From Candidatus Latescibacterota bacterium (GTDB taxonomy: Bacteria > Latescibacterota > UBA2968 > UBA8231), in NCBI GenBank assembly GCA_965248265.1, contig CBDFJF010000001.1:192001-256000 (forward strand): a stretch of 64,000 nt of DNA, read 5' to 3'. Within the stretch, counting starts at the first letter, position 1. Each line of letters opens with the position of its first letter. The translations under genes were made by a program, and so were the position numbers. Shown one piece after another: positions 1 to 14,536 of this stretch. The notes beneath the pieces are model-generated. The model saw only the letters and a program-made list of their open reading frames with translations. It searched no databases and was not told the DNA's origin.

Positions 1-2107
1 CCACGTGCTTCTGAAAGTCGAGCATATCGGGAGGAGTCCCGACGTAGGCATAGCGCACGATTCCTTGCTTGTCGATCACAAAGCTCGTCGGTATGGCCGT
101 CACATTGCCGTAGTCCTTCTGTACTCGATCGTCTCCCATCAGTAACGGGAAATTCAGTTCTTCCTTCTCCGCGTAAGACCGGACTTTCTCAGCCGTGTCG
201 TTGATCGCAATGCCAATGACGCTGAATCCGTCGTCCTCATATTGATTCTGGAGCGCGAAAAAGGTCGGCATTTCCTCCCGACAAGGGCCACACCACGTAG
301 CCCAGAAATCGACAATCAGGACGTGTCCCTCGAAATCGGCGAGTTTGACTTCCTTGCCGTCGATATCCTTCAGGACAAAATCAGGTGTTGGTTGGCCGAC
401 AAACTCCGCTTTGTCCTTGCTCCTCCCTGGAGGCCCGAACTCATCGACCAGTTTTGACCCTTCAGGCAGGGCGAAGGTGAAGGTGTCCTCGGGAAAGGCC
501 GGATCGATCTCGATGGCACTGTGACGCTCGGTGACGACCATTTTCTTGGGCATCCACTGCCGTTGCTCCTCCGGCATCTCCTTGGCCATCTGTGCCATAT
601 CTACCTCAAAAGCCACCTGGCGGATCAGGTGATCTTTCTTGCCAATCCAGAGCCGTAGGTTGATCGGCTCATCCATCCCTCCCCTCAACGGGATGTGTGC
701 TCCTTCCAGCGAACTCACTGGCACTGTCAGCTCGAAGACAGTAACGTTTGTGCCGTCCAGCTTCTCACGACCTACCTTCTTTACCCCCTCGGCGTCTTCC
801 ATCAGCTCTTTGAGCGGGTCGTCGCTCATCAAGATGGGAAATAAGTAGATACCTCCACCGAAACCACCCATTCGACTGCGTAAATCAGCGGCTGTGGCTT
901 TCTCGGGCGCTTTCTTCTGAGTGTACTGCTTCTGTCCTTCCATCCACCTCACGTCGAGGTAGGTGGTCAACATTAGCCCATCGCTGACCATAGCGGTCTC
1001 ATGCCCATGGCCCTTGGTGTCAAGTCGGAACCGATTGGGACGCTCGAAGGCGAACCACGTCGGTGTGGTCCTTTTCGTTTCCTCACCAGGCCGCTCCTGA
1101 TAGATCTCCATAGTCGTGCTGTCGCGGTAGCCTCGAAGGGATTGGTATCTCGCGGCAGCCATCGCCAGCTCCTCGGGCGGTTTGATCGGAGTCGCGGCAA
1201 AATCGATAACCATCTGTTCGCCAGCGTTGAATCTGGAGACCAACTCGGACTGAAGTCGGTCCAGCGCTGGCCACAAAACCCCAGCAAGGGTCCCTAAGTC
1301 AGCATAGCTTTCCAGCAGACCCTCTGGCAACGTCGGTCCCACAGCCACCTCCAGGCCTTCGTAATCCTGCACGAAAGCTAGATCGCCTAAGCGATCTGGA
1401 CGCCCTCCAGGCGTCCAGGTAATCCAATTGCCGTCTTCCGTACCATCCGCATCGTTTACCACGACATTGAACCCAATAGTCTTTCCCGCCTGGATCTGGA
1501 GGCGTTTCGAGGGAAAGTGTTCGAAAAGCGGGATGGACCACTCGTAGATCAGGCTCTCTCCCAGGCGCACAAAGGCGGCCTGCACTCCTGAGAGCTTCGT
1601 ATCCCCTCCACCAGACAAAGCGGGATTCCCATCCACCAGTGGCTTGAATCGACTTGGTCCGGGGACCATGACGTACTTCTGTGCGTCCTTCTCTCCTCCA
1701 CTTTGGAGGTCTCCCGGCCTGGGGCCGCTGTGGTCGGCATCCACGTAGATCTCACACAGGTCCTGGGTCACCACATTAGGTGCCTCTGGATGCACCACCA
1801 GATCCTCGTCCCGGACCACGATAGCCAAGTAGAGAGAATTGACCTCCAAGTCATAGCCGACGAAAAAGCCTGCCGTCAGATCCTCGGGTCCATCTGGCGG
1901 TGTGGATTTGTATGCCGAGGACACCCACTCAATGGGATACGAGGCCATGTGATCAGGCCAGTCGTCTAGCTTACCGTCGATGGTGATGCCCGGCAGGGGA
2001 ATGGCGTAGGCGGTCCTCTTGTTGTGGGCGTGAGAGGGGCCGTGTATGCCCGTCAGGAGGGCTATTGCAGCACAGATGGACGGATAGGGGATTCGCATAA
2101 ATCGCAT
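1..2107 (-). CDS. Secreted multidomain protein: CBM9/DOMON-like sugar-binding domain + DUF2092/LolA-like domain + TlpA thioredoxin-like domain; 3' end runs off the window (>700 aa)
   Basis: Absent from the ORF track because it runs off the edge. Manual translation from ATG 2107 is open to position 1: signal-like MRFMRIPYPSICAAIALLTG, ITIDGKLDDW...YLAIVVRDED...IGFNVVVNDADG (CBM9-like), FAFERPNRFRLD...MVSDG (LolA/DUF2092-like), DFWATWCGPCREEMP and AIPTSFVIDKQG (TlpA). Confidence 0.85.
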   Translation of the reverse strand, partial: MRFMRIPYPSICAAIALLTGIHGPSHAHNKRTAYAIPLPGITIDGKLDDWPDHMASYPIEWVSSAYKSTPPDGPEDLTAGFFVGYDLEVNSLYLAIVVRDEDLVVHPEAPNVVTQDLCEIYVDADHSGPRPGDLQSGGEKDAQKYVMVPGPSRFKPLVDGNPALSGGGDTKLSGVQAAFVRLGESLIYEWSIPLFEHFPSKRLQIQAGKTIGFNVVVNDADGTEDGNWITWTPGGRPDRLGDLAFVQDYEGLEVAVGPTLPEGLLESYADLGTLAGVLWPALDRLQSELVSRFNAGEQMVIDFAATPIKPPEELAMAAARYQSLRGYRDSTTMEIYQERPGEETKRTTPTWFAFERPNRFRLDTKGHGHETAMVSDGLMLTTYLDVRWMEGQKQYTQKKAPEKATAADLRSRMGGFGGGIYLFPILMSDDPLKELMEDAEGVKKVGREKLDGTNVTVFELTVPVSSLEGAHIPLRGGMDEPINLRLWIGKKDHLIRQVAFEVDMAQMAKEMPEEQRQWMPKKMVVTERHSAIEIDPAFPEDTFTFALPEGSKLVDEFGPPGRSKDKAEFVGQPTPDFVLKDIDGKEVKLADFEGHVLIVDFWATWCGPCREEMPTFFALQNQYEDDGFSVIGIAINDTAEKVRSYAEKEELNFPLLMGDDRVQKDYGNVTAIPTSFVIDKQGIVRYAYVGTPPDMLDFQKHV

Positions 2108-2132
2108 CGGTGTCAGCTCAGAGTTGGCCGAT

Positions 2133-2161
2133 AGGGTACGGAGATTCGGAGGGTGGACCAA
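2133..2161 (-). promoter_or_regulatory. Putative sigma70 promoter of the left islet terminal module
   Basis: Minus strand TTGGTC-N17-TACCCT, about 25 nt upstream of ATG 2107; conserved in the second copy at 11212-11240. Confidence 0.6.
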
Positions 2162-2307
2162 GCGGGGGACAGCTTAACTCATTATAGTGGCCGTCAGACG
2201 GGCTCTGAGGCTATCTGACGTCAGTGCAGACGTGCAGATACTTGGATTAGGGTCCCCCCACTTTCACGAATCCGCAAGAAGGGGTGCCGGGTCTGGGGGG
2301 GCGAGGT
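2133..2307. repeat. Islet terminal module, copy A
   Basis: Identical blocks shared with 11212-11433 in the same order: gggctctgaggctatctg, gtgcagatacttggattaggg, ccccactttcacg, aaggggtgccgggYctgggggg. Confidence 0.9.
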
Positions 2308-2439
2308 GGCTGGTGGAGGGGCACCCAGTGGCCAGGCGTGCTCCGAAACGCTGCCGAAGGTACAGAGGAGGTAGAAAACGACGGCCAGCCAAACGGAGAG
2401 CTCTAACTAACTCCCTGTATTTTCAGGGATTAGATCCTC

Positions 2440-2472
2440 ACTCACCGCACTCGGACACCAGAACTTCTCGAT
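2440..2472. repeat. att-like core repeat, distal copy (duplicate of isochorismatase 3' coding sequence)
   Basis: actcaccgcactcggacaccagaacttctcgat is identical to 11572-11604 and encodes IEKFWCPSAVS on the minus strand. Confidence 0.95.
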
Positions 2473-2723
2473 CTGCGCAGGGGATATGAACCGGTATGAA
2501 CTGGCCGGAACCACCAGAGGTGGACCTGCAACCCGACGATAAAGCCGCCAACGAAGAAGCTGACGATGTGCAGCAGTCCCTGTGAGAGGAATTGCAGGCT
2601 GATCGACATGTAGCGGCTAATCAGCACGTCGCCAATGAGTCCCCCCAGCAGTAACTCAACGGCGATGAATATCCCCATGCTGGCGAACATCCAGACCTTC
2701 GAGAAAGGCCGCGAATCGTTCAC
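2442..2723 (-). pseudogene. Small membrane protein, probably 3'-truncated at the islet boundary
   Basis: RBS GAAGGAG before GTG 2723; two hydrophobic helices to ...VGGFIVG, then a non-hydrophobic tail reading through the terminal repeats into the att core. Confidence 0.5.
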
Positions 2724-2818
2724 TCTGTCTCCTTCTTCCACGCGTGGCAACTTAGCGGCTCCACACAAGAGCCAGACAGGCGTCCAGCGGGGCATCGCTT
2801 CACTACCCTGTGTGTGGA

Positions 2819-3232
2819 TCAATATCCCCCAGTACTCGTTCCCGAAGTCCGGGTCGTGGCGACTGGTCGGCGCGTAATTGACAACGTCCCTTCCATGCCC
2901 TGTGCCCGATGGCCGGGAACGGCGCAGTAGAAGATATAGGTCCCTTCCGAGACGCCGCTCAATTGCGCGCTGGTCGTGTCACCTGCTGGTATATCCACAT
3001 TGACGTTGAGAGCATCGATAGTGAGCGTATGGCCCATATCCGCGCTACTCAATCGTATGGTGACCTCGTCTCCCGGATCAAAGGCAATCCCTCCCGGATT
3101 GAACTGGAACGTACTGGCGGTCATCTCAATGACGCCGTTCGATGGACGGGTTGGCCCGCCGCTATCATCTTCACAGGATGTGAGAAGGCAAGAGGTGAGG
3201 GCGGCGATGAAAACACCTGCGATAGTTTTCAT
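2819..3232 (-). CDS. Cupredoxin (blue copper) lipoprotein
   Basis: Lipobox LTSC; type-1 Cu ligands GHTL...YCAVPGHRAQGM. Confidence 0.85.
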   Translation of the reverse strand: MKTIAGVFIAALTSCLLTSCEDDSGGPTRPSNGVIEMTASTFQFNPGGIAFDPGDEVTIRLSSADMGHTLTIDALNVNVDIPAGDTTSAQLSGVSEGTYIFYCAVPGHRAQGMEGTLSITRRPVATTRTSGTSTGGY

Positions 3233-3404
3233 AATTCCGGATTCTTCACTTTTGTCAAATAGCCACAATCAGAAGGAACCGTGTCACGATCATTCCTCCT
3301 GTGCAGTGATGCTAAGTGGGGGCAGGCGAGAGTTTGATGTGGCGAGGGATGGGCGTCAAGCGTATGTCCGGATAACGAAGGAAGTGCAGAATGGTTGTCC
3401 GAAT

Positions 3405-4298
3405 CTACGGCCTGCTACCGTACTTTAACTCACCCCAACCCCTTGGTGTGACAGCCGTTGGCGCGTCACCCATACGCAACACACGAACACCAACGAAACC
3501 ACTTTCGCCGCGTGGGGAGCCGCCAGCCCGAAACGCCGAGCGAGTGCTTCGGCCTGCATTGCGGAAGTATCCGCCCCGAAAGACACGGACATTGGAGTCT
3601 GTTTTTGGCGTTAACGGGTCAATCTGGGGGTCATTCGTGTACATTCCAAACCCGTCCTGTACCCACTCGAACACATTCCCGTGCATATCATAAAGACCCC
3701 ATGGATTCGGTAACTTCGAACCCACCGGCTGGCCATACTGCAAACCTATGTCCCAAGCGTTCTTTCCATACCATGCGTAGTCTTCTAACTGGCTCTCATC
3801 ATCGCCGAAGGACCACAGGGTGGTAGTTCCGGCTCGACACGCATATTCCCATTCTGCCTCTGTCGGCAATCGATACAGTTCCTCGCCCTCCATTTCGTTC
3901 AAACGGCTGAAGAGTATCAAGGCAACGTTATACGAAATGTAAACCGCAGGGTGGTCCGGGTTGGACTGCACGAAGTCCTGGCCTGACCACGGAGTCCTAC
4001 CCATCACCGCCTCCCACTGTCCCTGGGTGATCTCAAACTTCCCCAGATAAAAACCCTGACTGATCGTCACGCTGTGTGCGGGTTGATCCTCTTGGAACTC
4101 GCCGTCCAACACTTCATCTCCCAGTGGGCCAGAGCGGTAAGCTTGCGCCTGTTCTTCAGTCGTTCCCATGACGAATGTGCCTGGCTCAATCCACACCATC
4201 TCCATCGTCGCGCCGCCAGGTAAGTCCACGGTGATCTCCGTGTTTGCGCTTACGCTCGTCACCGAAAGCATGAGAATGCATGTTAGCTTTTTCATCAT
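3405..4298 (-). CDS. Formylglycine-generating enzyme (SUMF1/FGE-sulfatase) domain secreted protein
   Basis: Motifs MVWIEPGTFVMG, YRLPTEAEWEYACRAG, PNPWGLYDMHGNVFEW, RVFRGG; signal peptide MMKKLTCIL; C-terminal TAVTPRGWGELK. Confidence 0.9.
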   Translation of the reverse strand: MMKKLTCILMLSVTSVSANTEITVDLPGGATMEMVWIEPGTFVMGTTEEQAQAYRSGPLGDEVLDGEFQEDQPAHSVTISQGFYLGKFEITQGQWEAVMGRTPWSGQDFVQSNPDHPAVYISYNVALILFSRLNEMEGEELYRLPTEAEWEYACRAGTTTLWSFGDDESQLEDYAWYGKNAWDIGLQYGQPVGSKLPNPWGLYDMHGNVFEWVQDGFGMYTNDPQIDPLTPKTDSNVRVFRGGYFRNAGRSTRSAFRAGGSPRGESGFVGVRVLRMGDAPTAVTPRGWGELKYGSRP

Positions 4299-4446
4299 GG
4301 TCCCTTCACCTTCGCATGATCCAACGCCCACTCCAGTACGCCATCGTCGGAACACGGCTCGACGTACTGCTGCAACCTGCCCAGCAGATCTGTCATCGTG
4401 ACTGATTGAATCCAAGGTTACCATCCAGCGCCACCCTTATGTCGTG

Positions 4447-4716
4447 CTACTCCGACTCGATCCGGTCTGGACTCTGGACGAACCAATCCACGTGGCCGCA
4501 ATTCGCACAGATCAAGGTCGTGGCGGATTTGTTCGCCCAGTCCAAGTTCAAGAGCGTCAAACCGGCCGTATTGAGCTGTGCCGATCCCTGCTCGAACTCT
4601 TCGAGCCCGCAGTGAGAGCAGGTGATGAGCTTGTCCTTGAGAGTAAATCGACCGGGAGCGAACGAGGTCGCTGCGGCCTGTACGCCCCTTCTCAAAGCTG
4701 TCAGAAGCTTCGCCAT
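4447..4716 (-). CDS. Zinc-ribbon protein
   Basis: CSHCG...CANCG pairs; RBS GGAGGAG upstream. Confidence 0.75.
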   Translation of the reverse strand: MAKLLTALRRGVQAAATSFAPGRFTLKDKLITCSHCGLEEFEQGSAQLNTAGLTLLNLDWANKSATTLICANCGHVDWFVQSPDRIESE

Positions 4717-4826
4717 GGTCTCCTCCAGATTGCGATTCCGATGTGGGGATTCGGGAAGATGTGTACGCAGCCTGCCATTGTGATCACGAGTGTAGTCGGT
4801 GGGAGTGAAGGGTCAAGAGTGGCGCA

Positions 4827-6281
4827 CTATCTCAGCAGCAGGAGCTTCCGCGTTTCCACTCGCTCGCCAGCTTGTAATCGATACAGATACACGCCACTGG
4901 CTAGCTCACGCTCGTTATCATCTCGACCGTTCCATCGAAGGGTATACGTCCCCGCACTTCGATAACCGCGCAGCAGACTCGCCACCTTCTGTCCTGCGAG
5001 GTTGTATAAGGATAGATCAACCTCGTCGGCGGTAGGCAGGGCGAAGCGAATGACGGTGTTGCTATTGAAGGGATTGGGGTAGTTCTGCCGTAGCGCAATC
5101 TGGTGCGGCAGTGTCGGCGCTGGTTCTTCTTCCACGGCAGTCGGCAACGGGAGTGCTGGGTCATGCGCCGCGAGCATGGCTTCGCGGTATTCGACCGGGA
5201 GAAGCGGCCATTCGTCGGGACCGGGTCGCCTCCAGAGATTCACGTTCTGACTGTAGACCCAGACATATTCGTCGGTGTGCTCGAGGGCGCCTCGCAACGC
5301 CGTGGTCAACTCGGTAGGTGAGTAGTAGTTGCTGTTGAAATTCTCGGTGGAGAAGCCGCTGGAGCTGCTGCCGATGAATATGGGGAACGCGATCCGGGCG
5401 TGGCGGTCGAACTTCTCCGGCACCCTGCTGTGAGCTCGGACTTCGGTCTTGAATTCCATCGCCACCTCCTCGAACTGGGCGGCCGTCTTGAACTTGTAGG
5501 CTTTCTCCGCGCCATCGATGATCATGGCCTCGCCAGAGCATTCCGACAGCAGCCCGTCGAAGAACGGGCGCGTGAGATCGAAGTGGTCGCGCGACGCCCC
5601 AAAGTTCGAGTGCACCGGCCCGAGAAGGGTGATTATCCTGATGTCCGGGTAGACGGAGCTGACGGCCCGCATGATCTCGGCACCGCGCTCGAATACCTTG
5701 TCGTAGTATGCCTCGATCGTCCTGGGAGCGAGGTGGTTAACGCGTTGGGAGTCCCACAGGTTCGTGGCATTGTAGGCCTCGTTGTCGAACAAGAAACCCA
5801 CCATGCCGGCGCGTTTGCAGTACTCGGCGGCCACCTTCCAGTTGCTCACGACGGCGTCGAACTCAGAATCGAACCAGTTCGGCACCTTCAAGCCCGCTAT
5901 GCCGGGGTCGAGGTAGACGAGAAGGAAATTCTCCATATACAAATTCGTATCAGCCGACCGCATGAGCTCAATGCCGGTATCGAGATCCACGAGGCGGTGG
6001 AAATCTTTCCGGAACAAACGGCCAACTGCCTCGGTGCGGAGGCCGTCCTTTTCGGTAATCGGGTAGATCGTAACGCCGTCGACGACTGGCATGACTCTTT
6101 CCATCTCACGCACATCGTCGAAGAACATGCGGGCAGTGGGTCTGCCGCTGAAGGAGATGACTTTCTTGCCGGTGTGAGCGGGCTGACTCCATCCCGGAAT
6201 CGCGAACACCAGGATCAGGCCCAGGACCAGCAGCGAGCTGACGCAGCACAAGGTGCAATACCATTGGATGAATCGGTTCAT
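4827..6281 (-). CDS. Secreted protein with a possible glycoside-hydrolase-like domain and a C-terminal FlgD-Ig/secretion-sorting domain
   Basis: Signal peptide; GFLFDNEAY and IIDGAE motifs; C-terminal LRQNYPNPFNSNTVIRF...WNGRDD...LASGVYLYRL. Confidence 0.8.
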   Translation of the reverse strand: MNRFIQWYCTLCCVSSLLVLGLILVFAIPGWSQPAHTGKKVISFSGRPTARMFFDDVREMERVMPVVDGVTIYPITEKDGLRTEAVGRLFRKDFHRLVDLDTGIELMRSADTNLYMENFLLVYLDPGIAGLKVPNWFDSEFDAVVSNWKVAAEYCKRAGMVGFLFDNEAYNATNLWDSQRVNHLAPRTIEAYYDKVFERGAEIMRAVSSVYPDIRIITLLGPVHSNFGASRDHFDLTRPFFDGLLSECSGEAMIIDGAEKAYKFKTAAQFEEVAMEFKTEVRAHSRVPEKFDRHARIAFPIFIGSSSSGFSTENFNSNYYSPTELTTALRGALEHTDEYVWVYSQNVNLWRRPGPDEWPLLPVEYREAMLAAHDPALPLPTAVEEEPAPTLPHQIALRQNYPNPFNSNTVIRFALPTADEVDLSLYNLAGQKVASLLRGYRSAGTYTLRWNGRDDNERELASGVYLYRLQAGERVETRKLLLLR

Positions 6282-6443
6282 ATGATGGTCCCCTTTGGTG
6301 GCTGTAGGATACACTTTTGCAAGAGACGTGCCAAGAAGGGCGACAGGAGAGTCAGGCGGTGCTAACTCATTGTTGCTGTGGGGATTGAGGTTAGCAGACT
6401 GTTTCCCGGACACATCGAGGCCGTGAGTCCGGTTTTCTGGACG

Positions 6444-6608
6444 GATTTCGTGGGTAGAATAGTTACGGGCTTCTCCTTCTCTACTCTCTCCCTCTCTCTG
6501 ACTTTTCTACCCCTCAAAAGGGATGTGAGGTGATTTCATGGGTAGAGTTGTTACCGTTGGTATGTCTCTTTCTTTCTCTCATTCTCTCTAACATTTCTAC
6601 CCTTCAAA
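6444..6608. repeat. Two ~76-bp tandem units (88-bp period), each GGGTAGA...pyrimidine tract...TTCTACCC; origin-like
   Basis: Unit 1 6444-6518 and unit 2 6532-6608 share gatttcRtgggtaga..gttac and ctctctRac.tttctaccc.tcaaa. Confidence 0.75.
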
Positions 6609-6832
6609 TCGAATGGCATGCGACTGAAGGTGCTCCCCCATCAGTGTCGATGTCGATCAAATGTTCTGTGAGGCCACGAAGTTGCCCACATTCGTCGATC
6701 GGTATGTAGGTGGCGTAACAGGTACCCGCAGACATTATAGAGCGTCAGAACGCCTGTAGAACGCCTCAGCGCCATCTTCATCAACATCTACGGACAATTC
6801 GACCCGGATCTATACACACTGCCGATGTTGCC

Positions 6833-7117
6833 TTACTGCAAGTCAGGCTTCCGAGATAGCGTTGAATGGTTCATAAGCCAGTAGCAAAGGACGCCCAGAC
6901 CGGGAACCGAAAATGCGAGTAGCGACCATATCCACGGACCAAAATCCATAGCCAGGGACGGTAGCTGATGGGCATTCTTTTGCACCGAGATACCAATCGC
7001 TATTTGAACAACGACTAAACACACGACGGCCAGAATGAACGGGGCGTAGATGACGATGAAAACAAATGGTACAAGAGCCATTTCCATGTGATCAATCTCC
7101 TCTGACGTTGCTACCAA
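6833..7117 (-). CDS. Small membrane protein of unknown function
   Basis: Two to three hydrophobic segments ending GPWIW...YWLMNHSTL; RBS AGGAG before an internal ATG suggests a slightly shorter start. Confidence 0.6.
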   Translation of the reverse strand: MVATSEEIDHMEMALVPFVFIVIYAPFILAVVCLVVVQIAIGISVQKNAHQLPSLAMDFGPWIWSLLAFSVPGLGVLCYWLMNHSTLSRKPDLQ

Positions 7118-7147
7118 TCATCGTAAGTTGCTTTTCATATGCGTGGG

Positions 7148-7259
7148 ACTGACACACTGACACAGTCCGACACAGAATTGGGGTAGGTTGCTATAGTGGG
7201 GATTTGCTGTATTGCAGAGCTTACCCTACAACCGTGTCGGGGTACGTCAGTGTGTCAGT
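7148..7259. repeat. Nested inverted repeat with GACAC iterons; origin-like
   Basis: actgacacactgac (7148-7161) and gtcagtgtgtcagt (7246-7259) form a perfect 14-bp IR; inner ccgacac/gtgtcgg and gggtag/ttaccc. Confidence 0.75.
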
Positions 7260-7353
7260 TGAAGCAGCATTCACGCGTTTACCCGCACTGCCAAACCGGT
7301 AACGTCGTCGCCCTGCGGAGCCGATCCCAGAGAAGGTCGAAACATGACTCGCT

Positions 7354-10300
7354 TCATCGCGCCGCCAGCTTTAGTTGTGACTCCTCCAGCCTCCGAACGA
7401 CAGCGGTCAGTGCGTCCAACTGCAGTCGCAACTCATCGTTACTCCGAGCCAACGTTTCCTTTTCGGATCGCAGTTCCGACAACTCAGCCTCCACCTGAGT
7501 CAATTCGGCACTACCAGACGCGGCCTTCTCGTGCTGTTGCTCGATGATCCCTTGCTGTTCCTGAATAGCCTTGACGAGAACAGGGACGAAATCGGAATAG
7601 TAAAGGCCCAGGGTCTGGTCAGGATCGTCGCCGATGTGGACGACCTCGTCGATTACAGTCCGCACCTCCTGGGCGATCAAACCAAGCTTCCTGCCCCGTT
7701 CAGGCCGGTCCTTCCAGGTATAGGAGACAGGGTGCAGACGCATCACTTCGTTGAGCCCATATGGACTGTCCTGGATACTCTCCTTCATCCGGCGATCTGA
7801 CGTGTTCACCGAACCACTAACGGCGAATACGTCCGTCCATCGATTACCCGATGCACCGCAAGAAATTGTGTTGTCAGTGAGCGGCCTGATGTTACCACCG
7901 AAATCGACAATACCAGCACCGAACTGGATGTTATTTCCAGCCGGTTGGATCCAAAGCTTTTTGCTATTCAGCGACTGTATGTAACCACCATTTGCATCAA
8001 CGCCAACGGCTACCTGACTGAGTGCTCCGCCACTCTGTCCGTTAGTCGCCATTATGTGCTGCCCGCTGCCGCCCGGTGTGGCATCTACCTTGGATACCAA
8101 CAGCGGGTGAGATCCGGAAGGACTCGTCGTGCCGATGCTGACGTTGCCACCTGTGGGTTGCAACACTATCTCAGTGCCGCTCTGTGATAGGAGTTCCAAA
8201 TCTCCTGTTGTCCCATCACGTGTTATAGAACCGGATGTTGCGGACGCGAAGAGAAGGGACAGATCCACACCGGCAGACTTCAGCAAAACATTACCAGTCA
8301 CTTCAAGCTTTTCTCCTGGTGCTGTGTTGCCGATGCCGACATCGTTGGCTGACGTGATGCGCATCGCCTCACTGCCACCCGTGTGGAATAGGATGGGAAG
8401 GCTGTTGGATTGAAGATAAAGGGCGGATTCGTCAACAGGTGAATAGAGCCATCCCTGCAGGTTCGCATCCTTCATGACCCGAAAACCACTATTGAGACTA
8501 CCCGCGGATTGAGCCGTGACATCGATATAGGTCGTGGCCGCACCTCCATCCACAACCAGTTCCTCTGCCGGACTCGTCGTGCCGATGCCGACGTTGCCGG
8601 CTGCGCTCACGGTCATCCTCGTCGTCGAGCCCGTCTGAAATTGAATGTCACGGGAGCCCGAGTTGTGTCCGATCTGTAGTCCAGTGGCATCAATGTGATC
8701 GACCGTGCTGGCGAAGCTTGCACCTTCGAGCTTCAGCCCAACGGATCCAGAAAGCACATCTCGGGCGTGTACCCGAGTAGTCGGTGCTGTTGTGCCCACG
8801 CCCACGTTGCCAGCATCGTCCACGACAAGCCGATATGTGGCGACACTCGTCTCGGCCTTATCCCGTACCTGGAAGAGCCACCAGGCGTTCTGCAATGCGG
8901 GGATGGCCGAATAGGCATCGGACCAGACTCCACTTTGCCACTTTATGTTTCCGCTCGTTCTGTCGAAATACTCGATCGTCCCATAATTATTAGTACCGTC
9001 ATCATACCGCATTCGCATCGTGAAGAATGGTCCCAGGTCAACGTCTATTGGAGTAATAGGGCTTGTTGTTCCGATTCCGAGCCCCCCATCCTTCCAGTAC
9101 ATATAGGCTTCCGACAGATCACCTTTCCAAAGTGCCAGGTCGTCTATGTTGTTGCTCTGCTGAAACCGGACTTTGCCCGTTCCCCTTGTGAACGTGAGCT
9201 GATCGCCTCCTGTTCCTTCGGCCACGTGGAGTTTTGCCAACGGCGAAGTAGTGCCTATACCCACGTTGCCATTCACCGTCAGTCCCCCAACTCCTGCGAC
9301 ATCGACAGCACCGTTGTCCGCTGTGATGGTGCGGCCAGCTCCCGCTCCACCTTCGTCGTAGGCTTCGTCAAGTGTATTCTGCGTGTCGGTGTCGGTATTG
9401 GTGTCGGTGGCGTTGAAGGTGAGGGTGTTGCCGGAAGGAGCGATGGCCATGTTAGTACCAGCGGCCAGAGTGACTGCGTCAGTAAGGCTGTTCACCGTCA
9501 GAACCACCGCACCTGCGGCAACATCGCCTGCCACTATGGTCGCATTGGCAATCTCAGCCGAGGTGACCGCACCAGGGGCAATCTTGGCAGTTGTGACAGC
9601 GGCGGCGGCCAGTTCCGTGGTCCCAACTCCACCTGCGGCGATATCGAGGGTTACATCGCCCGTGGTGCCGCCATTGGCAAGGCCCGTACCCGCCGTTACG
9701 CCAGTGATGTCACCCCCGGCGGTGGCGGCAATAGTCAGGGTGTTACCGGCCGGGGTGATGTTGATGTTAGATCCCGCGGCCAGAGTGACGGCATCGGTCA
9801 GGGTGTTGAGAGTGGTGACCACTGCGCCACCTGCTATATCGCCAGCGCCGATGGTCGCATCGAGGATCTTCGCACTCGTCACCGCGTCATTGGCCAGATC
9901 GGCTGTAGCAATGGTGGCGTCCAGGATTTCATCGGTGGCCACAGCGCCTGTGGCAATGTCAGTGGCGACAATGGTTGCGTCGGCGATCTTTGCACTCGTT
10001 ACCGCATCGGGGGCCAGATCAGCCTCCGCAACTGCACCGTCGATGATCTTGGCACCTGTGATCGAGTTGTCTGCTATGTCGCCAGTGCCCACCTCATTTC
10101 CACCGGTGGTCGAGATCGTGATGTTCTGGCCGACTTGAACGATGTCGATGTTGGCACCCTCAAGCAGGGTTACGTCGTTGGTGGCCGAGTTGAGACTCAA
10201 TACCGCCGTGTCCGTGGCCAACTTGGCTGCCGTCACCGAGGCGTCCTGGATCTTGGCAGTCGTTACTGCATCGGCCGCGATCTCTGCCTCGCTCACGGCA

Positions 10301-11141
10301 TCGGCGGCTATCTGCGTCGCCGTTACCGCATCGTCTGCCAGATCAACGGTTGCAATCGTGCCGTCTGCCAGTTTGGCCGAAGTCACCGCGCCATCGGCCA
10401 GGTCAGCAGTACCAATGGCACCGTCGGTGATCTTGGCGGAGGTCACCGCATTGTCAGCCAATTCAGATCCGGCTGTAGTGATCGTAACCGTATTACCGGC
10501 AGTGGCCACCGTGACGTTATCACCACCTGCGATCGTGACCCCGTCGGTGACGTTGTTTACGCTCGTCACTACCGCTCCCGAAGCGATGTCGGCTGAGCCT
10601 TGCTGCCATCGGCGATCTTGGCTGCAGTCACGGCATCATCGGCCAGCGCTTCACCAGTGATCGCTGCATCGGCAATCTTGGCGCTGGTTACTGAGTCTTC
10701 CGCAAGCTGCTCCGTACCCACGGCGTTGGCAGCGATCTTATCCGCAGTCACCGCGCCGTCTTCGACATCCTTGGCATAGAGGCTGTAGGGAGCCGCTACC
10801 AGTGCAATGCGCGGCGACAACTCATCGCCTGCGCCAATCGAGATCCCCAGGAAATAGGCTCGGTCGAAGGGCACCTCATCCAGAGACGCACTCTCGCCCA
10901 GTACCACATCGAAAAGCCCCTTGCTCGTCGTTACCGTCCGCGTCGCCGTCCACACGGCAGCACCCCCTGCGGTCTGCTCGTACAGGCGGAAGGTGATCTC
11001 ATGGTCACCATCTGTGACGACATCGCCCGCGGCATCGCTCAGGTAGCCCATGTAGGAAATGGTCTTGGGCACGGCCTCCTGGGCGTGGGCGGTCGATAGG
11101 GAAATTGCAAGGCAAAGTGAGATGGCAAGCAGGGATTTCAT
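7354..11141 (-). pseudogene. Secreted tail-fibre-like protein with peptidase S74 intramolecular chaperone, split by a 1-bp frameshift near 10600 (ORFs 10569-11144 and 7354-10569)
   Basis: Signal peptide, VPKTISYMGYL N-domain, AVTxAKIADG decapeptide repeats, GNVGIGTTSP repeats, TSDRRMKESI S74 motif and coiled coil; restoring one base joins ...KIADGS to GSADIASGAVVTSVN. Confidence 0.85.
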
Positions 11142-11211
11142 CACAACATCTCCTCAGTGAGATTCTTATTCGAGCATCTGGTGCAGACACTACACCATAG
11201 TGGCGGGAGTG

Positions 11212-11240
11212 ATGGTACGGAGATCCGGAGGGGGAACCAA
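11212..11240 (-). promoter_or_regulatory. Putative sigma70 promoter of the right islet terminal module
   Basis: Minus strand TTGGTT-N17-TACCAT pointing into the cargo; RBS GAGGAG before ATG 11141. Confidence 0.65.
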
Positions 11241-11433
11241 GCGATGGCAGGATAGCCTGCATTCCATCATAACCGCTGCTACAGCATCGCCATCACGAGG
11301 GCTCTGAGGCTATCTGGCGGGCAGATGTGCAGATACTTGGATTAGGGCAGGTGTGCAGATGGGTGCGGATGCATATCAGGGTCCCCACTTTCACGGATTA
11401 CAGAAAAGGGGTGCCGGGCCTGGGGGGCGAGGT
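11212..11433. repeat. Islet terminal module, copy B
   Basis: Colinear identical blocks with 2133-2307, plus extra GTGCAGAT-like repeats. Confidence 0.9.
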
Positions 11434-11501
11434 AGGGTAGGGGGAGTCGGGTCAGTCCGAATCGACGTCTTCGTGCTCCCTCGGTGCAGAATTTCGGAGT
11501 G

Positions 11502-11554
11502 ATGTGGTACAAATGTGGTACGCCGAAGGACTTTAGAACCGTAACCTGTTGTTA
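11502..11554. promoter_or_regulatory. Putative integrase arm-type repeats and IHF-like site
   Basis: atgtggtac twice with 11-bp period (11502, 11513); minus strand TAACAACAGGTTA at 11542-11554 is one mismatch from WATCAANNNNTTR. Confidence 0.5.
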
Positions 11555-12300
11555 TTATTTAGGATATCCCAACTCACCGCACTCGGACACCAGAACTTCT
11601 CGATGTACCCAATAACAAGCTGAGTCCCCTCCTCATGTCCAACGTAAGGCGGGGTCGCCGGATTGTACATCGCATCGGTGAGATCCCGGATCAGGGTCAC
11701 ATCCAATCCCCACTTGACCATCTGCTTGATGCCGAAAGTCCGGTTGATCACACACATGTTCGTGTGCACTCCCATGATCAGTAGATGGTGCACGCCGCGT
11801 GACGCCAGAAAGCTGTAGATCTCACCACCGTCATCGGCGATGCCGTCACGCACTTCGTCGATGTCGATACCAGGATGCTGGCTTGACCAGGCTTTGAACG
11901 ACTGCACTTCACCGGTGTCGGAACCACCATTGGGCGCACCGAAGGGGAGATCCGGGTCCTCACGCTCGGTTTCCGCCGGCGGCTCCACCGGCTCACATTC
12001 TTGAATCCTGAGACGCGCCGCGTTGTCGGCGTAGAATTCGAGCGTATCGGAGGGTGCATGCACGATGGTAACACCGCGATCTCGGAGCGCATGCGAGACT
12101 TCGTTCATGCGCGGAACCATCTCATCCACGCGCTCGGTTGCCCCCTTGGTCCAGTGCTTGTCCCACACGTCGCACAACAAGAGGGCGGTTTGCTCACATG
12201 GCAGTCCGGCTTGCTGCTCCAGCACTTCCCAGTACGCACGATCGGCCGCATCGCGCTTCATCTGTTGCCAGCGCCGATTGATCTTGATGACTCCGGCCAT
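11533..12300 (-). CDS. Isochorismatase/nicotinamidase-like cysteine hydrolase
   Basis: TALLLCDVWDKHW, IVHAPSDT, MGVHTNMCV, LIRDLTDAMYNP. Confidence 0.85.
   Translation of the reverse strand: MAGVIKINRRWQQMKRDAADRAYWEVLEQQAGLPCEQTALLLCDVWDKHWTKGATERVDEMVPRMNEVSHALRDRGVTIVHAPSDTLEFYADNAARLRIQECEPVEPPAETEREDPDLPFGAPNGGSDTGEVQSFKAWSSQHPGIDIDEVRDGIADDGGEIYSFLASRGVHHLLIMGVHTNMCVINRTFGIKQMVKWGLDVTLIRDLTDAMYNPATPPYVGHEEGTQLVIGYIEKFWCPSAVSWDILNNNNRLRF
11572..11604. repeat. att-like core repeat, gene-proximal copy
   Basis: Identical to 2440-2472; lies inside the isochorismatase CDS. Confidence 0.95.
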
Positions 12301-12302
12301 GT

Positions 12303-12468
12303 TAGTGCCCTGTTACGGAAGTAGGTTTGTGAAATGAGGGCGCCGAGTCGCCCGACCTGCAAGGCGCGCGAGCGAGGCATATTGGTGGAATATGCCGAGA
12401 GAGCGCAACGCAGTAGGTCGGGATGAATCGGCGGCCGAATACAAGAGTACTTCCGTGACAGGGCACTA
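12303..12468. mobile_element. MITE-like element, 166 bp, 21-bp terminal inverted repeats
   Basis: tagtgccctgttacggaagta and tacttccgtgacagggcacta (1 mismatch), TTAG/CTAG flanks, internal palindrome ggcatatt...aatatgcc. Confidence 0.8.
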
Positions 12469-13638
12469 GAACGTGCCGGTCACATCCATGGTCTTGCTGG
12501 CAGAGGGATCCTTGCTCACCGTCGAGTTGGCGATGCGCTCCTGCAACTTCTCGTAGTAAAACTCTTCATCTACCGGAATCGTCACCCAGTCGTCCGTCCA
12601 TGCCGACAGCAGCATGGCGTTCGAAAGCTCCACGCCGTTGATGCCTTCCTCGCCTGGCGCCAACAGCGGCGTGCCGTTGCGGATGGCATCTACCCAGTTG
12701 GTGAGAACGACGACGTGTTCCTGCTTGCCTCGGCTCGAAACCGGGATCTCGCACTCCCAGATCTCCGGCTGGCCGAAGCCGTTCGGATGCTCCTTGCAGA
12801 ATTGGCTGATCCCCTCGCGGGTGCGCCAGAACGTGATGCGGCCGTTCTCCACCACCACCTTGCCCCGGTCCGCCGAAATCTCCAGCCGGTTCGTCCCCGG
12901 CGCTTCCCCCGTCGAGGTCATGAAGATTCCCGTGCCGCCGTTTTCATACTCGACGTAGGCGGTCGTATCATCATCCACTTCGATGTCGTGGTACTTGCCG
13001 AATCCGACAAAAGCCCGCACCCTCACCGGCATGCCGCAGACCCACTGCCACATGTCCAAATTGTGCGGGCATTGATTGGCCAGCGCCCCGCCGCCTTCCC
13101 CGGCCCAGGTTGCCCGCCAACCGCCCGAATCGAAATAGCTCTGCGCCCGGAACCAGTCCGTGACGGTGTAGATGGTACGCTTGATCTCCCCCAGTTCCCC
13201 GGATGCGACCAATTCCCGCAGCTTTTGACTAATCGGTCGCGCGCGCTGGTTGAACATGATGCCGAAGACCCGGTCGCTTCGGGCGGCCGCTTCGTTCATC
13301 TCACGCACCTGTTTGGTGTAAACCCCGGCCGGCTTTTCCGACATCACGTGCAGGCCACGCTCCAACCCCTGGATCGCATAGGGCGGATGGAAGTAGTGCG
13401 GTGTCGCAATGATGATGGCGTCAATCCCACCTGCCTCCATCAACGCCTCGGCGCTGTCAAACGTGTTGATGCCCGGATGGCCATCTCTCACTGCCTGCAG
13501 CTTGCTCTCATCCGTATCGGCCACGGACACCAACTCGACGCCGGCCACGGCACCGCCGGCCAGGTGACGGATGTGCGCCGTGCCCATGCCGCCTGCTCCG
13601 ATGACGCCAACTCGTACTGAATCCGTTCGGTCTCCCAT
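12466..13638 (-). CDS. Gfo/Idh/MocA family oxidoreductase
   Basis: VGVIGAGGMG, IATPHYFH, EKPAG, GGGALANQCPH. Confidence 0.92.
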   Translation of the reverse strand: MGDRTDSVRVGVIGAGGMGTAHIRHLAGGAVAGVELVSVADTDESKLQAVRDGHPGINTFDSAEALMEAGGIDAIIIATPHYFHPPYAIQGLERGLHVMSEKPAGVYTKQVREMNEAAARSDRVFGIMFNQRARPISQKLRELVASGELGEIKRTIYTVTDWFRAQSYFDSGGWRATWAGEGGGALANQCPHNLDMWQWVCGMPVRVRAFVGFGKYHDIEVDDDTTAYVEYENGGTGIFMTSTGEAPGTNRLEISADRGKVVVENGRITFWRTREGISQFCKEHPNGFGQPEIWECEIPVSSRGKQEHVVVLTNWVDAIRNGTPLLAPGEEGINGVELSNAMLLSAWTDDWVTIPVDEEFYYEKLQERIANSTVSKDPSASKTMDVTGTF

Positions 13639-13651
13639 AAGGTCTCCTACG

Positions 13652-14536
13652 TCAAATCTGATTCTGACCCGATGGCGGGACGACAGGCTCGCCACCGCGA
13701 CACACGACGGGGAAATGAGCTCCAGCTCCCGACATCAGATCACCATTCGCCACCTCGACGAACTCTTTCATCAAATGGTCGCCGCTGGCATCGTAGTGCG
13801 TTTCGCCGGTCATGTAGTGAATGGCGATGGCCCGGCGATCCCTGTTGGATTGATTCGCCGGCGACCCATGCCAGTTGAGCGAGTGATGGAAAGACAACTC
13901 CCCCCGCTTCATCGGCCACGGCCGAGGAACCGCCTCTGCAACCTGCGCACCCTCTGGTGGAACAAAGGGCGCGGTGACGTTCTGGAAGTTCTCGAACTCC
14001 TTGCCCGTCAGATGCTCCCGGATGAAGGCGATCTGATCGCCCCACTGATAGCTGCCCGGAACCATCCACATGCAGCCGTTCTCTTCATCGACATCATCCA
14101 GGGGAATCCAGGCTGAAACGGAAGTCATCGGCTTGATGATCGGCCACAGCGGTGCGTCCTGATGCCAGCTGAGTGCGCCGCCGGTGCCGGCTGGCTTGTA
14201 CTGCAGCTGATCGTGCCAGACCACTAAATCCGACTGACGCGTAAGTTGGCATAATGCCCCCGTTATGGCGGGATGGTACAACAACCGCTCGAAGGCCTCC
14301 GATGCTTCCCAGATATTGACAATCTGCCACACCGGATGCTCGCTCACACCCCTGCCCCCGGCCAGATCCCGAAAGGCTACCGGCTTTGACTCGCCCTCGG
14401 CAAAGCCGTCCGGACCGGTTTCCAGAACACGGTCCAGCTCACTACGCAGCTCCTCGACCTCGTCCTGCTCCAGCAGTGTCCCGGCGTTCAGAAAGCCGTC
14501 GGCATCGAATCGCGCAATTTGCTCTTCGTTCAACAT
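13652..14536 (-). CDS. Phytanoyl-CoA dioxygenase (PhyH) family Fe(II)/2OG oxygenase
   Basis: WHQD, ENGCMWMVPGS, HGSPANQSNRDRRA. Confidence 0.9.
   Translation of the reverse strand: MLNEEQIARFDADGFLNAGTLLEQDEVEELRSELDRVLETGPDGFAEGESKPVAFRDLAGGRGVSEHPVWQIVNIWEASEAFERLLYHPAITGALCQLTRQSDLVVWHDQLQYKPAGTGGALSWHQDAPLWPIIKPMTSVSAWIPLDDVDEENGCMWMVPGSYQWGDQIAFIREHLTGKEFENFQNVTAPFVPPEGAQVAEAVPRPWPMKRGELSFHHSLNWHGSPANQSNRDRRAIAIHYMTGETHYDASGDHLMKEFVEVANGDLMSGAGAHFPVVCRGGEPVVPPSGQNQI

What the first reader, a model, noticed from the sequence alone, without database searches (positions are those of the whole stretch)
1..11604. Tandem array of integrase-less cargo islets inserted at the 3' end of an isochorismatase gene
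Seen: a perfect 33-bp copy of the gene's 3' coding sequence recurs 9132 bp away. Beyond the distal copy is a second version of the same element end, not ordinary chromosome, so at least two related islets are stacked. The complete 9.1-kb islet has no recognisable integrase, excisionase, primase or terminase; its genes are co-oriented and mostly encode secreted or membrane proteins. Established: tyrosine-recombinase islands duplicate a target 3' end and can integrate in tandem, usually at tRNAs. Inference: a family of non-autonomous, cis-signal-only cassettes mobilised in trans that swaps cell-surface cargo, functionally integron-like but built from att, arm and origin sites.
Basis: partly seen in the sequence, partly recalled or inferred. 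Interest (0 to 1): 0.85.

Follow-up and report, generated by a model that had tools for sequence, protein, structure and literature searches.

The report
Recombinase-less gene islets stacked at a gene end
A 9.1-kb block of cell-surface genes sits between two identical 33-base copies of the end of an isochorismatase-like gene, next to the remains of an older related block, and looks like a stack of integrated mobile islands that have lost their own integrase rather than a new kind of cassette system.

Summary
A perfect 33-bp direct repeat (2440-2472 and 11572-11604) is the 3' coding end of an isochorismatase-like gene, has only these two copies in the 7.3-Mb genome, and brackets 9,099 bp with no recombinase. 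Left of the distal copy lies a second version of the same end module.

New here: that module (promoter-like A, then B1-B3, then 130-145 nt, then the core) plus a conserved 112-nt hairpin H occurs a third time, in a 10.2-kb recombinase-less islet bracketed by a perfect 49-bp repeat of tRNA-Arg(ACG). So this is a small lineage-specific family using at least two different attachment cores.

In another genus, B3 starts about 25 nt after the stop codon of an intact tyrosine integrase next to tRNA-Val. The integrase is therefore missing exactly between core and B3 in this genome. The fibre genes of two islets are broken.

Best reading (0.6): accreted, decaying integrative islets, like cis-mobilizable elements (CIMEs). 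Mobilisation in trans is possible but untested: no empty site, circle junction or helper could be found. Nothing supports an integron-like system or an origin.

The parts
11533..12300 (-). Target gene: 255-aa isochorismatase-like protein. Its last 12 codons and stop (11533-11571) are supplied by the islet.
   Evidence: ORF; PF00857 E 2.9e-7; homologues in 38 of 41 genomes; C-terminal comparison.
11572..11604 (.). Gene-proximal copy of the 33-bp core (codons 233-243 of the target gene).
11428..11571 (.). 144-nt spacer between B3 and the core. It does not align with the other islets' spacers, it encodes the substitute tail of the target gene, and it holds a 9-nt direct repeat at about 11503-11522.
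11289..11427 (.). End module B of islet 1: B1 11289-11319, B2 11321-11347, B3 11383-11427. It holds three to four GTGCAGAT-like repeats; B3 can form an imperfect hairpin.
11215..11252 (.). Module A of islet 1. It is promoter-like and lies about 70 nt upstream of the fibre gene start. It is dispersed: 7 copies at up to 3 mismatches, plus a diverged one in islet T.
7354..11144 (-). Fibre-adhesin gene with a Peptidase_S74 chaperone domain, split by a frameshift near 10569-10600 into 191-aa and 1071-aa frames. It is a paralogue of the intact 1318-aa gene at C1:183218-187174.
7148..7259 (.). Hairpin H, a 112-nt imperfect palindrome. There are exactly 3 copies in the genome, one per A-B islet, with invariant outer arms.
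6833..7117 (-). 94-aa small membrane protein with no family match.
6472..6764 (.). Linker R, repeated at C1:181533-181824 (79%) and in part in islet T.
4827..6413 (-). 528-aa secreted protein with a type IX secretion C-terminal sorting domain. Its N-terminal domain has about 10 paralogues in this genome and few in relatives.
4447..4716 (-). 89-aa zinc-ribbon protein (Zn_ribbon_13, 25 bits against a cut-off of 23).
3405..4424 (-). 339-aa protein of the FGE-sulfatase family with a signal-peptide-like start.
2819..3268 (-). 149-aa cupredoxin with a lipoprotein-like signal.
2442..2822 (-). 126-aa ORF, a small membrane protein with no family match. It reads into the distal core in another frame.
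2440..2472 (.). Distal copy of the 33-bp core.
2377..2439 (-). Displaced tail of the target gene (20 codons and stop, in frame with the distal core). It fits the family's C-terminal consensus.
2136..2300 (.). End module of islet 2: A' 2136-2175, B1' 2190-2220, B2' 2226-2252, B3' 2256-2300. There are 139 nt from B3' to the core.
1..2161 (-). First cargo gene of islet 2: a 727-aa secreted CBM9 - DUF2092 - AhpC/TSA protein that continues 22 nt left of the window. The islet's own H copy lies at window -1181..-1069.

Best explanation
Window 2473-11571 is an integrated genomic islet that no longer encodes a recombinase. It most likely entered by integrase-type site-specific recombination between the 3' end of the isochorismatase-like gene and a look-alike of that end carried by a circular element. 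That would explain two things: the 33-bp crossover region is duplicated perfectly, and the element supplies a substitute C-terminal tail and stop codon.

The islet landed beside an older related islet at the same site (tandem accretion). Of the older one, the gene-proximal end module, a hairpin and some cargo remain. Further left is a third fibre-gene unit without core or B.

The family is defined by non-coding modules in fixed order: hairpin H, then promoter-like A, then B1-B3, then 130-145 nt, then the core. It has a third member at tRNA-Arg(ACG). In an integrase-bearing relative from another genus the order is core, integrase, B3, cargo. The islets here are therefore best read as integrase-deleted derivatives, comparable to cis-mobilizable elements (CIMEs). 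They are now decaying and are not shown to move.

Shown: the repeats, the modules, their copy numbers and spacing, the absence of recombinases, and the broken fibre genes. Inferred: the recombination mechanism, the order of insertions and the loss of the integrase.
For: (1) The 33-bp repeat is perfect, has only two copies in the genome, and lies in the coding end of the target.

(2) Both tails behind the two cores resemble the family's C-terminal consensus seen in 11 homologues, S-[ED]-[DE]-[LI]-[LM]. The distal tail has S-E-D-L-I and the current one S-W-D-I-L. This is expected if incoming elements carry a mimic of the gene end.

(3) Identity is mosaic: core 100%, spacer unalignable, B 82-96%. 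This does not look like a simple tandem duplication that diverged evenly.

(4) A third A-B-H islet of 10.2 kb lies between an intact tRNA-Arg(ACG) and a 49/49-identical partial copy. The distance from B3 to the core is about 130 nt there, against 144 and 139 nt at the isochorismatase-like gene. H has exactly 3 copies, one per islet, all in the same orientation.

(5) B3 occurs in 2 of 75 other genomes of the family. In G007 it starts about 25 nt after the stop codon of an intact PF00589 integrase (E 7.7e-22) that follows tRNA-Val.

(6) Signs of decay. The fibre gene of islet 1 is frameshifted. In islet T the fibre gene is split, carries a perfect 255-bp tandem duplication, and an IS3 sits at the tRNA end. 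Another carrier of module A, at tRNA-Met, holds a broken integrase.

(7) G+C is 0.52-0.59 across the islets, against 0.60-0.62 to the right and a genome mean of 0.596 (sd 0.025).

(8) The kind is described in the literature: CIMEs and accretion (passage of PMC5704250), and stacked elements with partial tRNAs and degenerate remnants (passages of bioRxiv 10.1101/2020.12.28.424599).
Against: - No empty site, alternative cargo or excision product was seen; the data could not show them.
- All three A-B islets lack an integrase and have nearly the same B3-to-core distance. That is odd for three independent deletions and fits a dedicated integrase-less family.
- The spacers show no detectable remnant of an integrase.
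- This genome's orthologue of the G007 integrase (64% identical, at tRNA-Val) has no B3 behind it. The link between B3 and an integrase therefore rests on one genome.
- The second B3 carrier outside this genome (G086) has no integrase within the 4 kb inspected.
- Module A also precedes genes away from any repeat, so part of the shared 'end' may be plain regulatory paralogy.
- The G+C shift is only about 1-2 sd.
Confidence: 0.6

Rival explanations
1. One reading: the islets are dedicated non-autonomous cassettes. They keep only cis signals (core, B arm, hairpin H) and are inserted, excised and spread by a recombinase, and perhaps a transfer machinery, encoded elsewhere. In this way surface-protein cargo is swapped at several gene ends.
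For: - 3 of 3 A-B-H islets lack any recombinase, and the B3-to-core spacing is nearly constant (144, 139, about 130 nt) although the cores differ.
- The arms of H are invariant in all 3 copies, while the neighbouring coding DNA is about 79% identical.
- Both complete islets have perfect repeats, 33/33 and 49/49.
- Short linker segments between genes are conserved while the gene bodies differ.
- Smaller units carrying module A lie next to partial copies of tRNA-Phe and of the end of an NHL-repeat gene.
Against: - No helper is visible. Core, B and H occur nowhere else in the genome. They were not found in the phage or plasmid collections, in viral contigs, or in the species-representative genomes.
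- No circle junction or empty site was seen (which was uninformative).
- One recombinase would have to serve two unrelated cores.
- The fibre genes are broken in islets 1 and T.
- The islet copies are only about 80% identical, so there has been no recent spread within this genome.
- B3 lies behind an intact integrase in G007.
Confidence: 0.2
2. This is not a mobile element. A and B are the long upstream control region of a paralogous surface-gene family, and H is its terminator. The repeat of the target gene's end arose by local duplication or illegitimate recombination during expansion of that family.
For: - Module A has 7-8 copies, always 70-130 nt before a start codon, with two conserved leader types that run into signal-peptide codons.
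- Fibre-gene paralogues are many, including a cluster at C2:216-235 kb.
- H always lies just after the stop codon of the first operon.
- The N-terminal domain of the 528-aa cargo protein is a within-genome expansion.
Against: - Two independent loci have perfect repeats of the 3' end of an unrelated target, a protein-coding gene and a tRNA, at the same distance from B3.
- The partial tRNA copy sits beside an intact tRNA operon, which is the classic footprint of integration.
- B3 lies behind an integrase at a tRNA in G007.
- The fibre paralogues on C2 lack A and B.
Confidence: 0.12
3. Assembly artefact: the 9.1-kb block was wrongly placed between two copies of a short repeat in a metagenome-derived assembly.
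For: The genome is 92% complete with 4.4% contamination. The runs hold variant letters at many places, so there are strains or paralogues in the sample.
Against: - A 33-bp repeat cannot mislead a two-contig, 7.3-Mb assembly.
- Contigs of the 4 runs (one sample) cover all 30 bins. Long pieces match with 0 other letters. Pieces start inside the core and run on into their own unique flank: at 2443 in 2 of 4 runs and at 11575 in 4 of 4. These runs are probably the source sample, so this is not independent support.
- Islet T shows the same architecture elsewhere in the genome.
Confidence: 0.03

Closest known systems
Cis-mobilizable elements (CIMEs) and tandem accretion of ICEs/IMEs in streptococci
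   Same: [quoted passage not shown] No integration or transfer genes. Stacked in tandem with related elements at one site. The three-step model of integration, decay, then integration of a second element into the att site is stated in the passage of PMC5704250 read.
   Different: No related ICE or IME was found here, and no conjugation genes. The phylum and target gene differ. The family uses at least two cores. Mobilisation is untested. Pavlovic 2004 and Bellanger 2011 were seen only as entries in that paper's reference list.
Tycheposon-built genomic islands of Prochlorococcus
   Same: Successive integrations at one site push older elements outward. The islands hold partial copies of the target, fragmented integrases and cargo-only stretches (passages of bioRxiv 10.1101/2020.12.28.424599). 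Islet T and the tRNA-Phe and tRNA-Met units here look alike.
   Different: Tycheposons are defined by their own tyrosine recombinases and replication modules, and none is present here. The main site is a protein-coding gene. There is no sequence relation.
SCC composite islands with pseudo-SCC elements at the 3' end of rlmH (orfX) in staphylococci
   Same: Cassettes inserted at the 3' end of a protein-coding gene, bounded by direct repeats, stacked in tandem, some without their recombinase. A composite island with a pseudo-SCC element is named in the abstract of bioRxiv 10.1101/336396 (search listing). The rest is recalled.
   Different: Those elements use Ccr serine recombinases and target rlmH. 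Here there is no serine recombinase near the islets, the target is different, and the only linked recombinases are tyrosine type.
Integrons
   Same: A stack of cargo units at one site, with units that cannot move on their own.
   Different: No intI, attI or common promoter. The units are multi-gene with their own promoter-like module. There is no attC-type site between genes: one hairpin per islet and no Rfam match.
Mosaic adhesive trimer (MAT) chimeric fibre proteins of Bdellovibrio (cargo only)
   Same: Multi-copy fibre family with a conserved N-terminal part and variable distal part. There is a weak NCBIfam hit of the 191-aa part to Bdello_MAT_N (E 2.6e-6, below the cut-off) and a Peptidase_S74 domain. 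PMC10769870 was seen as a search listing and abstract start only.
   Different: The score is below the family cut-off, the organism is different, and function is untested.

Membership tests
Cis-mobilizable element (CIME) | [quoted passage not shown] | tested here: met
   33/33 identical repeat at 2440-2472 and 11572-11604, lying within the target's last codons
Cis-mobilizable element (CIME) | Has lost integration and transfer genes | tested here: met
   No PF00589, PF00239 or PF07508 match in six frames. No such family in 17 ORFs scanned
Cis-mobilizable element (CIME) | Derived from an integrase-bearing ICE or IME by deletion | tested here: inconclusive
   B3 lies right behind an intact integrase in G007. 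However, no integrase remnant is detectable in the spacers, and no conjugation module was seen.
Cis-mobilizable element (CIME) | Can be excised or co-mobilised by the integrase of a related element | not testable with these tools
   Only k=31 contigs were served, and they break at the repeat. No helper was found.
Autonomous tyrosine-recombinase genomic island | Encodes its own integrase next to one att site | tested here: not met
Integron | intI integrase with attI and a common promoter | tested here: not met
   The nearest PF00589 matches are at C1:277121 and a fragment at C1:151626, both outside the array
Integron | Single promoterless cassettes, each ending in an attC hairpin site | tested here: not met
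   The islets hold 6-8 genes with a promoter-like module A. There is one hairpin H per islet and no Rfam family in 1-14000
SCC / pseudo-SCC composite island | Insertion at the 3' end of rlmH by Ccr serine recombinases | tested here: not met
   The target is an isochorismatase-like gene. The 4 Resolvase-domain matches lie elsewhere in the genome
Tycheposon | Element-borne tyrosine recombinase with a replication module, inserted at a tRNA or other island site | tested here: not met
   No recombinase or replication gene in islets 1 or T. Only the stacking with partial targets is alike.

The most novel reading that the evidence does not exclude
A lineage-specific family of integrase-less islets keeps a fixed set of cis sites: arm B with GTGCAGAT-like repeats at a set distance from the core, and the invariant hairpin H. 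It is moved in trans to the 3' ends of different genes (an isochorismatase-like gene, tRNA-Arg). It would work as a dedicated shuttle for surface-fibre and secreted-protein genes in an uncultivated lineage rich in type IX secretion substrates.
Probability: 0.2. Interest if true: 0.75.

Novelty: new member of a known kind. Interest (0 to 1): 0.5.

Why it matters
If the best reading is right, this is a clear, well-delimited case of island growth by accretion and decay at the end of a protein-coding gene, in a poorly known lineage. It also shows where that lineage stores and varies its surface fibres and secreted enzymes.

The family is small (three members with sharp borders, three shared non-coding modules, two different cores). 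This makes the open question easy to test: are integrase-less islets dead remnants, or are they still moved by a helper? The test is junction PCR or long reads, followed by recombination assays with the lineage's tyrosine recombinases.

Tried and rejected
Empty site or other cargo:
- 40 relatives were searched and all are other genera. The target homologue reaches at most 62% identity.
- In 10 fetched loci (10 kb each side) nothing downstream of the homologue matched the islet region, apart from sorting-domain hits in 2 loci.
- A metagenome scan for the exact core gave 0 hits.
- A metagenome scan with the protein gave 183 relatives, of which 80 were kept. The three closest (85, 83 and 76% identity) all run off their contigs at residues 168-176, and the other 77 are at most 60% identical.
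- In 35 homologous loci of 8 kb or more, 34 have no second copy of the gene end. One (L080) has only a local repeat 95 nt away.

Reads:
- 4 runs of one sample were found, kept only as contigs. Contigs break at the repeat, so none of the four possible junctions can be phased.
- One low-depth joint (2303 to 11367, 2 of 4 runs, depth 2.3-2.6, 33 nt on the shorter side) joins non-homologous points of the two B modules. I treat it as a paralogue or strain artefact.
- Depth was not used as evidence.

Helper or wider family:
- The B2 21-mer and a degenerate module-A pattern each gave 0 hits in species-representative genomes and in viral contigs. H gave 0 hits in viral contigs.
- The A-B-core stretch gave no match in the plasmid or phage collections.
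- B is not significantly similar to the flanks of the other A copies: 6 comparisons gave z from -1.2 to 1.6.
- A weak B3-like hairpin at C1:166944-166991 (nhmmer E 0.002) lies between convergent genes and was left as a possible remnant only.

Structure and signals:
- No Rfam family or tRNA in 1-14000.
- No sigma-70-type promoter or intrinsic terminator in 11000-11700.
- No compensatory changes in B3 or H.
- A 7-nt inverted repeat next to the two cores, seen by eye, is within chance.

Supplementary files of papers were not consulted; those of the tycheposon preprint hold the element examples and may bear on the comparison.

Full report
**The observation.** The window is C1:192001-256000 of a 7.32-Mb, two-contig genome with 59.5% G+C. 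A 33-bp stretch is repeated exactly at 2440-2472 and 11572-11604, 9132 bp apart, and the similarity extends to 46 nt at 89%. The genome holds only these two copies at up to 3 mismatches. No third copy at 70% identity or more exists near the locus. A chance repeat of this length within 10 kb is out of the question.

The proximal copy is codons 233-243 of a 255-aa gene on the minus strand (11533-12300). That gene matches Pfam Isochorismatase weakly and only in part (E 2.9e-7) and has homologues in 38 of 41 genomes searched.

**Anatomy of the complete islet (2473-11571).** All seven main genes are on the minus strand:
- a fibre protein with a Peptidase_S74 domain, split by a frameshift into 191-aa and 1071-aa frames;
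- a 94-aa membrane protein;
- a 528-aa protein with a type IX secretion sorting domain;
- an FGE-sulfatase-family protein;
- a cupredoxin;
- a 126-aa membrane protein that reads into the distal core in another frame.

An 89-aa zinc-ribbon ORF lies at 4447-4716. By eye, four proteins begin with signal-peptide-like stretches.

No integrase, excisionase, primase or terminase family matched any of the 17 ORFs scanned. Six-frame searches of the whole genome for tyrosine and serine recombinase domains found 18, 4 and 2 matches, none in the array. A permissive tblastn with all integrase-like frames found only a C-terminal fragment 40 kb to the left.

**The element end and the second islet.** Between the fibre gene and the proximal core lie module A (11215-11252), B1-B3 (11289-11427) and a 144-nt spacer. 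The spacer encodes the present last 12 residues of the target gene. Left of the distal core the same order recurs: a 139-nt spacer with an in-frame alternative tail, then B3', B2', B1' (82, 96 and 84% identity) and A', followed by a 727-aa secreted protein gene.

Both tails resemble the C-terminal consensus of 11 homologues. This is what one expects if each incoming element brings a mimic of the gene end. Identity is mosaic: perfect core, unalignable spacers, 82-96% in B. That argues against an evenly diverged local duplication.

Extending leftward gave no third core. It did give a copy of hairpin H belonging to islet 2 (window -1181..-1069), and further left an intact 1318-aa fibre paralogue with its own A and a copy of linker R but no B. 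'Stacked' is therefore right, but only one islet is complete. G+C is modestly low (0.52-0.59) from about -18 kb to 12 kb.

**A third family member.** A BLAST of the islet against the genome found a colinear locus at C1:2289249-2297953. It lies between an intact tRNA-Arg(ACG) and a partial copy whose 3' 49 nt are identical, which is followed by tRNA-Arg(TCG).

This 10.2-kb islet T has a diverged A, B1-like and B3 modules about 130 nt from the partial tRNA, its own H, a fibre paralogue split into 955-aa and 443-aa frames, small unknown genes and an IS3 at the tRNA end. It has no recombinase of the integrase type. H occurs exactly three times in the genome, once per islet and in the same orientation, with invariant arms. 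The same non-coding kit thus sits next to two unrelated cores at nearly the same spacing.

**Module A is wider than the islets.** It has 7 copies at up to 3 mismatches, always 70-130 nt before a start codon, with two leader types. Its contexts include:
- a 1.9-kb unit between tRNA-Phe and an 85%-identical 110-nt partial copy;
- the end of an NHL-repeat gene whose last 29-44 nt recur 3.8 and 4.9 kb away;
- an 8.4-kb island at tRNA-Met with a broken tyrosine integrase 350 nt from A.

A looks like a portable promoter region, not an att arm.

**Relatives.** A, B2 and H patterns were not found in the species-representative genomes or viral contigs scanned, nor the A-B-core stretch in the plasmid and phage collections. 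Within the family (75 other genomes) B3 was found in 2.

In G007 it begins about 25 nt after the stop codon of an intact tyrosine integrase (PF00589, E 7.7e-22) that follows tRNA-Val, and a sulfatase gene lies beyond it. The full form there is core - integrase - B3 - cargo. In the present genome the integrase is missing exactly between core and B3.

Against leaning too hard on this:
- the orthologous integrase of this genome (64% identical, at tRNA-Val) has no B3 behind it;
- the G086 copy lies about 225 nt from the end of a PhyH-family gene, with no integrase in the 4 kb inspected;
- the spacers keep no detectable integrase remnant.

**Mobility.** It could not be tested. No genome of the same genus is held. 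The closest metagenome contigs break inside the target gene. The four runs that hold the region come from one sample and are served only as k=31 contigs, which necessarily break at a 33-bp repeat. No other place in the genome carries the core, B or H, so no resident helper is visible.

The best-supported mechanism is ordinary integrase-type insertion followed by accretion and loss of the integrase, as described for CIMEs (passage read) and for stacked tycheposon remnants (passages read). I put this at 0.6. The bolder reading, a dedicated cis-only family moved in trans, keeps about 0.2. It is favoured by the three integrase-less members with constant spacing and an invariant hairpin.

The integron analogy fails on its defining features, and nothing supports an origin. 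Novelty: a new member of a known kind.

Noticed in passing
L107:9881-11938 (C1:466881-468938): A 1.9-kb unit lies between tRNA-Phe(GAA) and an 85%-identical 110-nt partial copy of its 3' half plus terminator. The copy carries a compensatory change in the T arm. The unit holds module A, a leader remnant and one SpoIIE-family phosphatase gene, and no recombinase.
   Followed up: partly
L117:1501-2746 (C1:1922833-1924078); distal repeat at C1:1915614-1915633: An 8.4-kb island at tRNA-Met(CAT) holds a tyrosine integrase broken into two frames (180 and 111 aa). Module A lies 350 nt from it, and a 19-of-20 copy of the tRNA end lies 8,388 bp away.
   Followed up: partly
L109:5393-5421, 6478-6521, 10232-10275 (C2:2000393-2005275): The last 29-44 nt of an NHL-repeat gene recur twice downstream (97% and 80% identity). 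Module A abuts the gene's stop codon, and a histidine kinase gene follows. This could be stacking like that at the isochorismatase-like gene, or paralogous gene ends.
   Followed up: partly
module A type-2 leaders: window 2100-2136, L107:10110-10140, L109:10160-10195, L117:1470-1500, L110:1520-1550: Between A and the start codon there is a short hairpin whose stem differs between copies while pairing is kept, as read by eye from the aligned copies. One copy is in another genus (G021).
   Followed up: no
C2:216000-235500: A cluster of at least four fibre-gene paralogues spaced about 4.9-6.6 kb apart. They have a conserved leader and start but lack modules A and B. Integrase-like matches lie at C2:206730 and C2:188677.
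   Followed up: no
L118:11382-11891: A perfect tandem duplication of 255 bp inside the fibre gene of islet T.
   Followed up: no
window -44000..-40000 (C1:148001-152000): A 4-kb stretch with G+C of 0.42-0.51, against a genome mean of 0.596. Beside it lies a 78-aa C-terminal fragment of a tyrosine recombinase (C1:151599-151832).
   Followed up: no
L003:4210-4746: A 178-aa ORF with helix-turn-helix domains of the kind found in transposases (HTH_32, HTH_29), 15 kb left of the window.
   Followed up: no
L029, L037, L049: The three metagenome contigs with the closest homologues of the target gene (85, 83 and 76% identity) all end inside the gene at residues 168-176.
   Followed up: no
window 4827-5140 and genome-wide: The C-terminal sorting domain of the 528-aa protein has well over a hundred look-alikes per genome in this family (138 first-look candidates in this genome). 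The lineage is very rich in type IX secretion substrates.
   Followed up: no
window 12466-13695: A GFO/IDH/MocA oxidoreductase gene lies between the target gene and the 294-aa gene at 13652-14536. In 3 of 10 relatives' loci that 294-aa gene's homologue is the direct upstream neighbour of the target homologue.
   Followed up: no
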